Positions 51,001 through 57,000 of a DNA stretch of 64,000 nt are shown here, in pieces. Each line of letters starts with the position of its first letter. Position 1 is the first letter of the stretch. The DNA comes from an uncultured Methanosarcinales archaeon (GTDB lineage: Archaea; Nanobdellota; Nanobdellia; Woesearchaeales; GW2011-AR9), in assembly GCA_964498285.1 (NCBI GenBank), contig CAZCGN010000001.1, positions 239,916-303,915 on the forward strand, written 5' to 3'. The position numbers were made by a program.

Positions 51001-54000
51001 CAGCGCTTGTTCCTCCCCCACTTGGAGATACATGCCTAACCCATGCACCATTCACGGAGTATGCATAGGAGTTGTCATCATCATCATCTGGTGAAACTAA
51101 ACTAACTTGGTTTCCACCAGTTACAGATGCTAAGTCTAACTCACTACTTGCAGCAGTTACGTTTGCACTGATAACTTCGTACGGAGCAGATACCCTATCG
51201 TCAACTCTGTCTGTATCGACTAAAGTTACGTTAAAGTTTAGCTTTCCTGAAGCCATCCTAAACATTGTACCACCGTTTCCACCTGAGACGTTGTTTGCAA
51301 AGATGTCCACACGAGCACCACCTTCAGTGATAATGTAGTTTCTCACTCTAATTGCAGTACCATCAGCGCTTACTGCAGAAGAGTTTGTTACAGCTCCCCC
51401 ACTTACAAGGATTTGCCAGTCTTTAGCGGATGTACTTCCAGCAGTGGTTGTTGTAACGTTCTGGATGTTGTAGGTCGTACCTGAAAGACTTAATGTTGCC
51501 ATAGGTGTTGAACCGAAAGTAACAGGTCTTTCAACAGTCTCTCCAGTTGCTAAGATCTTGAACTTAATCTTAGGGTTTGACTTGGAGATATCGTCTGCTC
51601 CCTTATACTGAATAACGTTGGATACAGAGTCCTCATCAGTATCATCGTTCAAGATGAAGTACTGCTCATCGTGAACAAAGTTCGGGTGCAATGATAAGTT
51701 ATCATTCTGGTCACCTAACCTCAATGTTGTAGAGGAATCCGCGTACGCTAAAGGTAGCTCAATTTCATCACCATTAATGTTGGTGAACGATAATTTATAC
51801 TCCTTCTCACCACTACTATCCTTAACGGAGATTTCTGTTGTCTCAATTGAGGTATCTAGGCCACTGAAAAGAAGGTCCCAGTTCCCGAAAAGAAGTCCCT
51901 TTTCATCAAATTCAGACTGTTCTGACAAGGTTTCGCCCGCTGCTATGAAGTAATCATCCTGAGCAGTCATGTTCACAATGATCTTATCAATTTCCAACTC
52001 ACCATCAGTTGTGGTGGAAGATGCTGCAGTTAGGAATGAACCCACAATCTCAACGTCTGCTCCATCAACAGTTTCATCGTTCACTTGAAGTTCATCTGTA
52101 CTTCCGGATGCGTTGATACCATCGTCTTCAAGAACAAGCTTATCAGCTCCAAGGAAGAACTCTGCATGATGGATACCACCCGCGTAGTTCTGGTAGAGAA
52201 CCTGGCTTAAACCAAGTACCGTTCCATCTGCAAGTGTTTCTGTGTCACCTTCATCAAGCACAGGAGTTGTCTGCCCATTTACTGTGAACTTTGCACGACC
52301 AGAGTTAGTATCATCGGTGTAAACAAGTGCCACATCATAAGATACATCTCCAATCATGTACGTTTGGGATTCTCCTTCAAGAAGAGTGTCTGAAGCTGAA
52401 CCTGCCATCAAGGTCAAGGTTACTTTATCGCTGTTTGCACCACCAGTTACTGCTTTTACAATATCATAGGTGTTTCCAAACATAGTTATGCTCTTACCTT
52501 CATAGTCATCTAGTTCGAAACTTTCTGATGCATCAATATCGGATTCTGCTGCTTCTAGGAAGTTAAGTTGATATCGCGCAAATAGGTTGTTATCTTTAAC
52601 TTTCATGAACAAAGCAGTCGAATCATCATCATCTTCTTCAAAGGTAGTGTTGATTGTAGCCTTATCAAAGTAGAGAAACTGCTCATACTCAAATGTTCCC
52701 TGGGAGCTTGTTAACTCACCATTTGCAAGAGAACCAAGGTCGGATTCATCTAAGAAATCCACAACACCATTAGTTGCAGGACCGATTGACTCACTAAATT
52801 CTAATTCGTCTGATCCACTCTGAACAAGCCATGCATCTCCGTCTACAGTAGTCATAGTAGAACTTCCTGATGACGCCATCATACTTGTTGCAATGTCAAT
52901 GGAAGCTAGAGTGTCAACCGCAGCCCCAGTTTCACCAACTACAATAAGTCCATTGTATACCCCGTCAGTTACGAAGTCATTAGGGTAGTTATTCAGGTTA
53001 CCTGCAAACGCACCCATAACGGTAGCACCTAACATTGTTGCGCCGGCAGCAACTGCGGTGATCCGCTTAAATATTTTTTTTGTATTCATTTTTTCCCAAA
53101 ACACCTCCAAGTGTCTCTTTTTCTCTAATCTTCTTCAGCAGCTAAACTCATCCACGAAAATTCCGAAAAGGCCACTCGAAAGGGTTAGCCTTTTTCGATT
53201 CCATAGACGTGATCGAGCCGAAAAGCTAGTGTGATTACCTCAAAATACCAAAGTTTCGTTTATAAGCTTTTCGAAAAAATCCAGTTTAGAAAAGGCAGCA
53301 GTTTGATATGAGGGCTCGAAACTAGAAAATTTAGGAGTTTGAGCATTTCATCATTTTCGTGTGACAAATGGAACTAAGTTCTATATCTTTTTTCCACGCA
53401 ACAATATTTGATTTTAATGCATATAAAGCTTACTCTTTTAGGGGGTAAGGAAGCAAAAAGAGCAATATTTGCGCAAAAGCATTAAAAACGCACAAAAAAC
53501 AAGGACTTACCATGAATATTTCCGAAACAGATATGCCAGAATATCTCAAAAAGAAGTACAGCTCATTTGGCCCCCTACGGCCAATTCAACAAAAATCGCT
53601 TGAAGCGGGCCTTACTTTAGGAAGATCATTGCTTGCATGTGCTCCAACTGCCTCAGGGAAAACGTTTGTTGCAAGTATGGCTATTGCAAATACACTCAGA
53701 AAAGGTAAAGCCATCTATCTTGTTCCACTCAAAGCACTTGCAACAGAAAAGTTCAAAGAGTATTCAGATATGCTCGAAGAGACTAATTTCAAAGTAATAT
53801 CTGCAACAGGAGATATTGACTCAGACTCTGCATATTTAGCAAAATATGATCTTCTAATTTTAACAACAGAAAAACTTGATAGCTTAATTAGACACAAGGT
53901 AACCTGGCTTAGTGAAATCAAGCTTGTTGTAATTGACGAGATTCATTTACTCAATGATGCCTCACGCGGACCAACGCTAGAGGTGATCATCACGTTACTT

Positions 54001-57000
54001 AAACAACTAATTTCCCCACAGATCATCGGATTATCTGCAACAATAGGTAATCCTGCTGCACTCGCTGAGTGGTTAGGGGCTACACTCATCGAAGATTCTT
54101 GGCGACCAGTAGAACTGCACAAAGGCATCGGTCTTAATGGCGAAGTTGAGTTTTATTAACTACCTTCTTTCCATAAGCCTTAAAAAAGTAAATAATCAAT
54201 CGAAGCAAAAATGCTAGATCCACAACAGTTTCATTCAATTCTTACGGAAAGGGGATTGTCAAACTTTTACGGGGTGCCAGATTCTTGTCTTAAAGATCTC
54301 TGTGGAGTAATCACGGACAAAGGTGGAAAAGGAGACCACATTATTGCTGCAAACGAAGGAAATGCTATTGCAATGGCAGCAGGCTATTACCTAGCAACAA
54401 ACAAACCAGCAGTAGTATACCTTCAGAACTCTGGTCAGGGAAATACCATTAATCCAATTAATTCGCTATCAAAAATGTTTGAGATTCCAATGCTCCTAAT
54501 TGTTGGATGGAGAGGAGAACCAAACCTCGAGAAGGCAGACGCCCCTCAACACATACACCAAGGAGAAACTACAAAACCTATTTTTGATGCAGTTAACATC
54601 CCACACAGCGTTCTTCCAACATCTATTCAAGATGCACAGGCCCTCATTGGAAAAGCATTAGAGCACATTAAATCGACACAAACACCCTATGCAATCCTTG
54701 TTCGTAAAGGATCTTTTGAAAAATATTCATTGCAAAAAGTTAAGACTACGAATTTTGAGCTCAATAGAGAAGGAGCAATAGAAACAGTAGTCTCCCTCCT
54801 ATCAGAAAAAGCAATCGTTGTTGGCACAACAGGAAAAACTTCACGTGAGCTCTACGAACTACGGAAAAAACAAAATACCGGAACACATAAAGATTTCTAC
54901 ATGGCAGGTTCAATGGGACACGCATCATCTATTGCGCTTGCACTTGCACAACAACAACAAAACAAGAGAGTATGGTGTTTTGATGGTGATGGAGCGTTTA
55001 TCATGCACATGGGAGCTGCTGCAATAATCGGACAAGAAGAGCCAAAAAACTTTTATCATATTGTGTTCAACAATTTTGCTCACGATTCTGTTGGTGGGCA
55101 ACCAACGGCGTCAGACACAGTCAATATTCAGAAAGTTGCACTAGCATGTGGATATAAAACTGTATTTAGAGCAAGCACAAAAGAAGAGATTCAAAGACGT
55201 GTTAAAGATATGCAAAACCTAGAAGGCCCTGTTCTCCTAGAAATCTATGTAAACAAGGGAGCGCGCAAAGATCTTGGCCGTCCTAAAGAAGATCCAGTGT
55301 TCCTACGTAACCAGTTTATGGAACACCTTTCAAGAAGTTAGAAAGAATCTGCCACCAATTTTCTAATCTCATCGAACGCTGCCTTGCTGTGGCTTTCTTT
55401 ATACGTTTGTGAAAGTTGTATCATCATTTCTTTAGGCACAAACTTCTGATGCAATAAAAAACTGCAGAACTGCGTAACATTATGTGGATTCTTGCTCGCA
55501 AAACATCTTTCAAAATCAAGCAACGTTACTTGGCCTTTCTCGTCTACAAACACATTAGTATTTGGCCGGTGCATCTCTTCTTTATTGACGTGAAGTGTAT
55601 CTAAGAGATATGCTTGGTTAAGAAGATCTAAAAGTGCATTTCTAACTTTTTTAGATTCTCTTCCATTCTGTTTTATAAAATCTGGAAGTGATACGCCTGC
55701 AACAAACTCACGAACATAATACCCTTCTCCTTCGAAAAAAACTCTTGGGCCAATATTCTTTTTATTTGCAATTTTAAGCCACCTCACTTCATTTGCAATA
55801 CGATTTTCTGCTTTGGATTTAGGGTGCTTCACTTTTATTGCAACAGTAACTTTCTGAGAAGGGGCCAGGTGCGATTTGACAAACTCATTCTTATTCCATT
55901 TCCCTGTAAAGATAAGCCCACGCTGACCTTCATTAAGATAGGCTATATCTTTTATGCCACGCGATACTAAAGCACTGCGCACAGTATTGGGAACTATTTT
56001 GTACACATACAATGTTTCAAACATCGGCAACTTTTTTTCTTCAAGAATTTCAAAAAAATATAACTGCCTTTCAAGAATCGCATCAACTTGTTCTTTGTTT
56101 GTTAACGACGAGAAAAGTAAAAGAACTTGCCCATTCTGCGAAAGATGATTGCCAATCTTTGCTACAAATTGTTCTATTGTCTCCCACCCCTTCTTTCCAC
56201 CGTACAACGCAGGATCTTCGATCGGTTTTCCACAGGCAACATCTTGGGGTAAATAAGGGGCATTGAAAATGATTGTATCAAAGTCGCCATCAATATTTTC
56301 AAATAGATCACTCTGAATTGCAGTGAATTTTTGTATGTTCTCCTTTTCTTTTTTTTCTTGAAGTTTTTTTATTGCTTTTTCATTTATATCGACTGCAAGA
56401 ACTGATCTAACAGAAGGACTTTTGAGCGCCGTTAGTGCTTGGATTCCAGAGCCTGTCCCCATGTCCAACACCCTTCCTTTTGCATGCTCCTGGACAACTT
56501 TTTGAAGTAAAAAAGAATCTTCTTGTGGCTCATAGATTTCCATCGATCGTTTAAAAAGAAGCTCTTTGATAAGTATTTTGCAAAAACTTAATAAAGAAGG
56601 TACTGGTCTTGCAATTGATCAATGGGCTTGTGGTCTAGTGGCTATGACAGTGCCCTTACAGTGCTCTTGAGCATATGAAAGGCATTGATCCCCGGTTCGA
56701 GTCCGGGCAGGCCCATCCTTTTCTTACCGTTTTGTTTCAAAAGCTTAATATAACATGTGCTGTGGCAACGTTTTATGTATGACGTTATTGTTGTTGGAGC
56801 GGGGCCAGCAGGAAGTAGTTGCGCGCACCACTGCGCAAAACGTGGCCTTAAAACTATTCTTCTTGACTACAGAAAAAGACCCGGAACACCCAAACAGTGC
56901 GCTGAAGGTATTAACAAAGAAATTCTTAAAGAGATTGGCATCAAACTAAAGCCAGAATGGATCTCGCAAGAGATACACTCCATGGTCGTCTCAGATTTTA

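What a model noticed while it worked through the whole genome (the two positions that open the first line are those of the whole stretch)
53512..54159. Hel308 helicase split into two distant genes order-wide
Hel308 is encoded as two unlinked genes: RecA1 domain (g00305, 215 aa) and RecA2-winged helix-ratchet-HhH (g00762, C1:711253-712818, 521 aa). The split at the same point is fixed across Woesearchaeales, so the ATPase site must be built in trans by two polypeptides.
Evidence so far: g00305 covers residues 1-213 (51% id) and g00762 residues 235-720 of archaeal Hel308. All 39 genomes of 41 with a hit have the N-part in a 197-293-aa open frame; all 24 of 31 with the C-part have a 411-555-aa frame, on other contigs or far away. 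Both halves are intact and 53-69% conserved.
(Added by a program. Inside this text positions count along the whole contig: contig position 239,916 is position 1 of the stretch shown here. "Call 12" and the like, gene names such as g00115 and contig names such as C1 are that model's own, and its searches are not shown. The text may have been shortened before it was handed on; [...] marks where a part breaks off. The agent that wrote the report below was given it as the finding of a first reader that could run no searches.)

Follow-up and report, generated by a model that had tools for sequence, protein, structure and literature searches.

The report
Two-gene Hel308 helicase with RadA-mimic motif
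In this small archaeon and across its whole order, the DNA-repair helicase Hel308 is encoded by two intact, far-apart genes cut inside its motor, so the enzyme likely assembles from two proteins, and the larger one carries a short motif that likely docks on the recombinase RadA.

Summary
Confirmed. Window 53512-54159 encodes the front 215 aa of Hel308; the other 521 aa lie 417 kb away on the opposite strand, and no intact copy exists. In 151 genomes of the order, 138 hold the front half, always in a short frame, and 132 hold both halves. Other orders mostly keep one gene. Both halves keep all motifs and are under purifying selection. One refinement: the cut lies about 19 residues inside RecA2, so the front chain donates a strand to its partner's sheet (model score 0.82, best control 0.00; may echo solved Hel308 structures). 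Two additions. First, the rear half carries an FxxA-like motif resembling RadA's own polymerisation motif in a winged-helix loop (49 of 61), plus a PIP-like tail. Second, a neighbouring order shows a second fission site, right after motif VI, with at least two origins. No paper was found. This scan noted the same split before on seven other windows. Activity and binding are untested. Verdict: new variant of nanoarchaeal split genes.

The parts
53512..54159 (+). Front gene of split Hel308 (215 aa, P0001): RecA1 plus the first strand and hairpin of RecA2. Its partner, the rear gene (521 aa, P0002: rest of RecA2 with motifs IV-VI, winged helix with the FxxA-like loop at residues 260-263, ratchet, HhH, PIP-like tail), lies outside the window at G000:C1:711253-712818 (-), L001:7254-8819
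   Evidence: front; AlphaFold2 model mean pLDDT 93.9. Rear:
53587..53589 (+). Q-motif glutamine Q26
   Evidence: invariant in 46 of 46 front halves
53641..53664 (+). Walker A, residues 44-51
   Evidence: P45, T46, G49, K50 invariant
53935..53946 (+). Walker B DEIH, residues 142-145
   Evidence: D142, E143, H145 invariant
54034..54042 (+). Motif III SAT, residues 175-177
   Evidence: invariant
54106..54159 (+). C-terminal RecA2 strand and hairpin (residues 199-215) and the conserved stop; residues 203-207 are predicted to pair with rear-chain residues 157-163
   Evidence: junction alignment; complex contacts; stop position in 35 and 80 loci

Best explanation
Hel308 is encoded here by two intact, unlinked genes, whose products likely bind each other non-covalently to rebuild one helicase with an ATPase site shared between the chains. 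The front chain (RecA1, Walker A and B) is predicted to insert its C-terminal strand into the RecA2 sheet of the rear chain and to pack against the rear chain's winged helix, which closes the ring as in single-chain Hel308. The rear chain supplies motifs IV-VI, the ratchet and the HhH domain. It likely also carries the partner contacts: a PIP-like tail for PCNA and an FxxA-like loop for RadA. The cut fell in a variable surface loop, likely once in the ancestor of the order, and the genes then drifted apart. Shown: gene structure, conservation, selection, distribution. Inferred: heterodimer, helicase activity, PCNA and RadA binding. The confidence value is for the heterodimeric helicase; I put RadA binding by the loop at about 0.65.
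For: All catalytic positions are conserved at 95-100% in 47 front and 61 rear halves. dN/dS is 0.03-0.19 (front) and 0.03-0.22 (rear) where computable among the 25 closest pairs of 39 paired assemblies. Front and rear distances correlate, rho 0.50, which shared descent alone would also give. The junction alignment shows a clean cut in a variable loop with little or nothing lost. Complex model: score 0.82, best of 3 controls 0.00; the mark was reached by 116 of 157 solved complexes and 2 of 215 mismatched pairs; runs agree in at least 99% of contacts; partner pLDDT at least 87. Contacts include front 203-207 with rear 157-163, front 157-161 with rear 216-221, and Walker A/B residues with the motif V/VI stretches. 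Predicted interface positions are more conserved than the rest: 0.80 vs 0.65 and 0.75 vs 0.63. A tree holding the 43 split rear halves together is 64 log-likelihood units better than the free quick tree, p-AU 0.92. A second fission site in three genomes of another order again leaves that strand pair and the RecA1/winged-helix contact between chains.
Against: No biochemical or expression data. The complex pass may come from likeness to solved single-chain Hel308 (2zj2, 2p6r, 2va8). Interface positions are also more conserved in intact proteins (0.69 vs 0.56 and 0.65 vs 0.50), and almost no split-specific interface residues were found. 15 of 151 genomes showed only one half, including two rated 100% complete (G096, G106); one of the 15 (G084) has a rear fragment at a contig end. 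Free trees needed 2-4 label changes, with intact G239 among split rows at weak support, so a single origin is not proven.
Confidence: 0.85

Rival explanations
1. The halves form a helicase only part of the time. The rear chain also works alone as an ATP-free DNA-binding and annealing protein recruited by PCNA and RadA, and the front chain acts as a switch-on subunit.
For: The genes are unlinked, with no neighbour family in more than 6 of 30 front loci or 8 of 29 rear loci (larger clusters there are antisense shadow frames of the gene itself). The PIP-like tail (52 of 61) and FxxA-like loop (49 of 61) sit on the rear chain. Domains 4 and 5 are credited with annealing (PMC13623763). Rear-only genomes (9) slightly outnumber front-only (6).
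Against: The rear chain alone lacks a RecA2 strand and its RecA1 packing partner. Motifs V and VI stay intact in the rear-only genomes whose contigs reach them. One-half genomes fit draft-assembly gaps; the apparent break in G103 is a run of N.
Confidence: 0.2
2. The two products are rejoined covalently, by a split intein or by RNA trans-splicing, to give an ordinary single-chain Hel308.
For: N. equitans joins tRNA halves in trans (PMC3655853). Inteins occur inside some rear halves.
Against: No intein remnant lies at either end: front halves stop within a few residues of the conserved Phe and rear halves start at their own Met in register. Head and tail lengths vary. RNA complementarity between the two junction regions is at shuffle level: mean z -0.12, 2 of 42 below -2, against 5 of 42 for a control pairing. 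A first, composition-uncorrected test gave p 0.008; the signal vanished after shuffling.
Confidence: 0.03
3. The split is an assembly artefact or the pieces are decaying pseudogenes.
For: The genomes appear to be mostly draft assemblies from metagenomes (record titles).
Against: The same short frame recurs in over 120 family codes and in all four single-contig genomes of the sample (G016, G025, G085, G097). 4001 protein clusters of 118-377 aa match at E <= 1e-30, the best 120 being 214-247 aa. dN/dS is far below 1.
Confidence: 0.01
4. The FxxA-like loop is not a RadA ligand but a docking motif that holds the two halves together, or binds another protein.
For: It is present in 49 of 61 split proteins and in 0 of 20 intact proteins of the same class. 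F..[AG] is a common four-letter pattern, 6.3 per 1000 residues in this proteome.
Against: The same loop with F..[AG] occurs in 23 of 95 intact homologues, four of them named Aenigm(at)archaeota, some with the FxSG/FxTG form of RadA itself. The loop is not among the confident contacts of the complex model, which is no proof of absence. G091 lacks the loop but has the motif at its N-terminus.
Confidence: 0.25

Closest known systems
Archaeal Hel308/Hjm (Ski2-like SF2 DNA helicase; PDB 2zj2, 2p6r, 2va8; NCBIfam NF002654, NF001308, NF040935)
   Same: Best sequence and fold matches for both halves; same five domains and motifs; C-terminal PIP box as reported for P. furiosus Hjm (PMC2636818).
   Different: Two unlinked genes, cut about 19 residues into RecA2; neither half reaches a family cut-off; a loop of about 10-20 residues, sometimes longer, with an FxxA-like motif in the winged helix, absent from 2zj2.
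Split protein genes of Nanoarchaeota (N. equitans, Nst1): reverse gyrase, large helicase-related protein (Lhr), AlaRS, topoisomerase I
   Same: Unlinked halves of a normally single gene in a small-genome DPANN archaeon; Table 1 of PMC3655853 includes a split SF2 helicase, Lhr.
   Different: Hel308 is not in that table. The Lhr split sites differ between the two genomes, and I did not check whether they cut the motor. Here one site is fixed over a large order with genomes of 0.6-2.7 Mb.
FxxA Rad51/RadA-mimic motifs (recombinase inter-domain linker; Rad52, Rad54, Rad57)
   Same: Consensus [DEG]-F-x-S-A-x-[ED]-[LI] against M-G-F-x-[ST]-G-x-[DE]-[LVI]-L in 19 RadA proteins of the order. This genome's motif FTTA equals the S. 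pombe Rad51 linker motif, and FISA equals a Rad52 motif, as printed in PMC7837696.
   Different: Not found described in Hel308. The review PMC13623763 says clear data for a Hel308-RadA interaction are lacking. Binding untested.
DISARM DrmA/DrmB (YprA-like helicase on separate genes)
   Same: An SF2 helicase family member encoded by two genes (bioRxiv 10.1101/2025.09.15.676423).
   Different: That cut separates the helicase from accessory domains within an operon; here it passes through the motor and the genes are unlinked.

Membership tests
Archaeal Hel308/Hjm | RecA1 with Q motif, Walker A, DExH Walker B and motif III | tested here: met
Archaeal Hel308/Hjm | RecA2 with motifs IV, V, VI | tested here: met
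   (on the second gene)
Archaeal Hel308/Hjm | Winged helix, ratchet domain 4 and HhH domain 5 | tested here: met
   PF20470, PF21280, PF14520 (PF14520 below its cut-off); fold matches rank Hel308 1-9
Archaeal Hel308/Hjm | All five domains on one polypeptide of about 700 aa | tested here: not met
   two unlinked genes; filed as a split variant, orthologous by sequence, fold and tree
Archaeal Hel308/Hjm | ssDNA-stimulated ATPase, 3'-5' unwinding, annealing | not testable with these tools
   needs purified proteins
Nanoarchaeal split protein genes | Two intact, unlinked genes that together cover a protein that is single-chain elsewhere | tested here: met
Nanoarchaeal split protein genes | Products assemble in trans into a working enzyme | tested here: inconclusive
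   model only: 0.82 vs best control 0.00, possibly by likeness to solved structures
Split-intein proteins | Intein N-fragment after the front part and intein C-fragment before the rear part | tested here: not met
FxxA recombinase-mimic motifs | F-x-x-A/G in an exposed, flexible segment, conserved against variable flanks | tested here: met
   (pLDDT 53-61 at residues 251-270)
FxxA recombinase-mimic motifs | Binds the FxxA pocket of RadA/Rad51 | not tested

The most novel reading that the evidence does not exclude
The rear chain is a recombination hub that binds PCNA through its tail and plugs into the RadA filament through a RadA-mimic FxxA loop, while the separately encoded front chain arms it as a helicase. 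Splitting would then turn Hel308's known annealing/unwinding toggle into a subunit switch, and the loop would be a first defined RadA-binding site in an archaeal Hel308, shared with intact Hel308 of other DPANN lineages.
Probability: 0.3. Interest if true: 0.8.

Novelty: new variant of a known kind. Interest (0 to 1): 0.62.

Why it matters
A natural two-chain SF2 motor lets ATP binding and DNA gripping be separated and titrated, and shows which helicase interfaces suffice for assembly. Repeated fission at two different loops says the Hel308 ring tolerates being built from parts. The FxxA-like loop makes an open question directly testable with a peptide: whether and how Hel308 contacts RadA, for which a 2026 review says clear data are lacking. 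Practically, annotation names the front half only 'DEAD/DEAH box helicase', so Hel308 can be scored as absent or fragmentary in this order. The fixed cut could also serve as a shared marker for the order.

Tried and rejected
Literature: ten answered searches found no description of a split Hel308 or of an FxxA motif in Hel308; the library lacks most subscription journals, and I read no supplements (the sequence tables of PMC10946056 could bear on this). Expression: no RNA holder listed, so no reads were laid. Promoter/terminator scans were at shuffle level and use a bacterial consensus. RNA trans-splicing: rejected after composition control. Split intein: rejected. Pseudogene decay in one-half genomes: not seen. 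Conserved neighbours: none order-wide. Long front frames (G116, G055, G096, G115) are upstream run-ons or N gaps; G003 was not checked. Long rear frames are inteins (G093, G072, G079, G087) or a C-terminal fusion (G056); G129 was not checked. Of 98 other-order genomes with a match, 13 have frames under 500 aa: three are the second fission, one is an N gap, five were checked as contig ends, three lie at a contig start by their coordinates, and G181 was not checked. The careful front-half tree did not finish and the quick tree was poorly resolved. My first idea that the FxxA loop is specific to the split clade was dropped.
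Full report
Observation. Window 53512-54159 (+) is a complete ORF of 215 aa. 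Its best solved relative is P. furiosus Hjm/Hel308: residues 19-212 align to 21-213 of 2zj2. The partner gene at G000:C1:711253-712818 (-) encodes 521 aa aligning to 230-711 of the same chain. The best NCBIfam model is covered at positions 1-217 and 230-710. The genes sit about 417 kb apart on one gap-free contig. No other Hel308 piece exists in the 96%-complete assembly; a distant single-chain paralogue lies on C3. Most close relatives are titled Woesearchaeota or Nanoarchaeota/Nanoarchaeia; many others carry the label 'uncultured Methanosarcinales', which I take to be a submission label.

Spread. Of 151 genomes of the order, 138 have the front half, always in a frame of 197-350 aa, and 141 have the rear half once a paralogue-only hit is removed. 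Both occur in 132, one in 15, none in 4. Fourteen pairs share a contig and none is in tandem. All 80 further front loci encode 214-261 aa. With an intact query over 301 high-quality genomes, 215 of the order matched, and every full-length match listed came from other orders. In the class sample, 85 of 98 matching genomes of other orders have frames of 542 aa or more. Longer homologues in the protein collection reach at most 57% identity, short ones 78%. A tree holding 43 split rear halves together beats the free quick tree by 64 log-likelihood units, p-AU 0.92; free trees were weakly resolved and needed 2-4 changes. One ancestral fission is therefore likely but not proven. Tallies include unpublished G112, G132, G488 and G489.

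Both halves are functional genes. Catalytic positions are 95-100% conserved in 47 front and 61 rear halves. dN/dS is 0.03-0.22 where computable in the 25 closest pairs of 39 paired assemblies. One-half genomes keep intact motifs where the contig reaches them, and the one apparent break is a run of N.

Where the cut lies. Hjm domain 1 is residues 1-197 and domain 2 is 198-399 (PMC2636818, passages read). The front chain therefore carries about 19 residues of RecA2, conserved up to the stop. The rear chain starts at the next strand or helix; in this genome's family the short stretch before the helix is gone. The cut is in a loop that varies among intact orthologues. In the complex model the front strand 203-207 pairs with the rear strand 157-163, the front helix 157-161 packs on the rear winged helix 216-221, and Walker A and B residues lie in the interface along with motifs V and VI. 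Score 0.82, best control 0.00; the mark was reached by 116 of 157 solved and 2 of 215 mismatched pairs; runs agree in at least 99% of contacts; partner pLDDT at least 87. Because single-chain Hel308 is solved, this may show likeness and not binding.

Covalent rejoining is unlikely. No intein fragments flank the cut. Junction RNA complementarity is at shuffle level, mean z -0.12 over 42 pairs, although an uncorrected test first gave p 0.008.

A second fission site. Three genomes of another order (G298, G241, G266; three families, 39 genomes searched) end the front part exactly at motif VI and start the rear part at its own Met just before the last RecA2 strand. The parts lie 2.4 kb apart with unrelated genes between, 25 kb apart on opposite strands, and on two contigs. 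G266 groups with intact genes of its own genus, and one clade of the three is rejected (p-AU 8e-6 and 0.008), so this break arose at least twice. Several intact relatives have a Met two residues after motif VI, which could supply a ready start (inference). In both fission types the same strand pair and the RecA1/winged-helix contact fall between chains.

Partner motifs on the rear chain. A PIP-like box lies in the last 30 residues of 52 of 61 rear halves, 7 of 20 intact proteins of the class and 14 of 66 others; Hjm binds PCNA by such a box. A loop of variable length in the winged-helix wing holds a conserved F-x-[ST]-[AG] in 49 of 61 rear halves, 0 of 20 intact proteins of the class and 1 of 66 others; chance in a 20-residue loop is about 0.02. 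The loop has low model confidence and is followed by a short helix. RadA proteins of the order (19 of 31 loci parsed) carry M-G-F-x-[ST]-G-x-[DE]-[LVI]-L in their linker, and a profile of it picks the loop as the top window in 38 of 61 rear halves by my count, with modest scores. RadA and Rad51 polymerise through this FxxA linker (PMC4856416, passages), and auxiliary factors mimic it (PMC7837696, passages). The same loop occurs in 23 of 95 intact homologues, four named Aenigm(at)archaeota, so it does not depend on the split. G091 lacks the loop but carries the motif at its N-terminus. I infer a RadA-binding motif; this was not modelled or tested.

Mechanism. The most likely state is a stable two-chain Hel308 with a composite ATPase site, working as a 3'-5' translocase and annealase in recombination control, targeted by PCNA and RadA through the rear chain. 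A part-time role of the free rear chain is not excluded.

Known context. Split genes are a known trait of Nanoarchaeota; Table 1 of PMC3655853 (passages and table read) lists reverse gyrase and Lhr but not Hel308. The Ski2 survey PMC10946056 (passages and section 18), the 2026 review PMC13623763 (passages), PMC8301817, PMC8407392 and PMC4080772 (passages) showed no such split in what I read. The YprA preprint (passages) describes helicases split from accessory domains. Searches found no report; supplements were not read. This scan recorded the same split on seven other windows; look-ups for the FxxA loop and the second site returned nothing.

Verdict. Real, order-wide, a new variant of a known kind. 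Interest 0.62: the split motor is unusual but has nanoarchaeal precedent; the RadA-mimic loop and the recurrent second fission give concrete tests.

Noticed in passing
L390/L388 (G298:C1:291629-296221), L389/L385 (G241:C4), L392/L391 (G266:C64 and C62): Second, independent Hel308 fission right after motif VI in three families of a neighbouring order, with at least two origins; protein P0315 (900 aa, with intein domains) also ends at that motif.
   Followed up: yes
P0002 residues 258-266; proteins P0341, P0370, P0373, P0382, P0392, P0398: FxxA/FxxG motif like RadA's linker in a winged-helix loop, also in intact Hel308 of other lineages, four named Aenigm(at)archaeota.
   Followed up: partly
L068 (G093), L069 (G072), L070 (G079), L071 (G087): Large inteins inside the rear half, at motif V in three genomes and just before motif VI in one; G087 also has a frame change near its end. 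Intein identity is read from the end residues, not from a family scan.
   Followed up: partly
L067:1493-3775 (G056): Rear half fused at its C-terminus to about 220 residues that look like a SAM-dependent methyltransferase of MnmC type (label recalled, not tested).
   Followed up: no
class sample; phylum sample: 117 of 251 class genomes, nearly all from other orders, gave no Hel308 match with this query, which suggests loss in whole lineages; G370 of such a family has a rear-half-like match only.
   Followed up: no
G000:C3:59195-60688 (-): A single-chain paralogue in a 655-aa frame matches both halves weakly (E about 1e-15); similar frames of about 630-670 aa occur in several genomes of the order. 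Family not determined.
   Followed up: no
L322:1495-2448 (-), G000 RadA, and L324-L353: RadA of the order has Gly, not Ala, at the fourth position of its linker motif in 18 of 19 parsed, whereas the Hel308 loop has Ala.
   Followed up: partly
window 50498-53110 (-) and 54211-55341 (+); L001:6680-7204 (-): Neighbours look like an S-layer protein, a phosphonopyruvate decarboxylase and ribosomal protein L10e (labels recalled from the translations, not tested); none is conserved order-wide.
   Followed up: no
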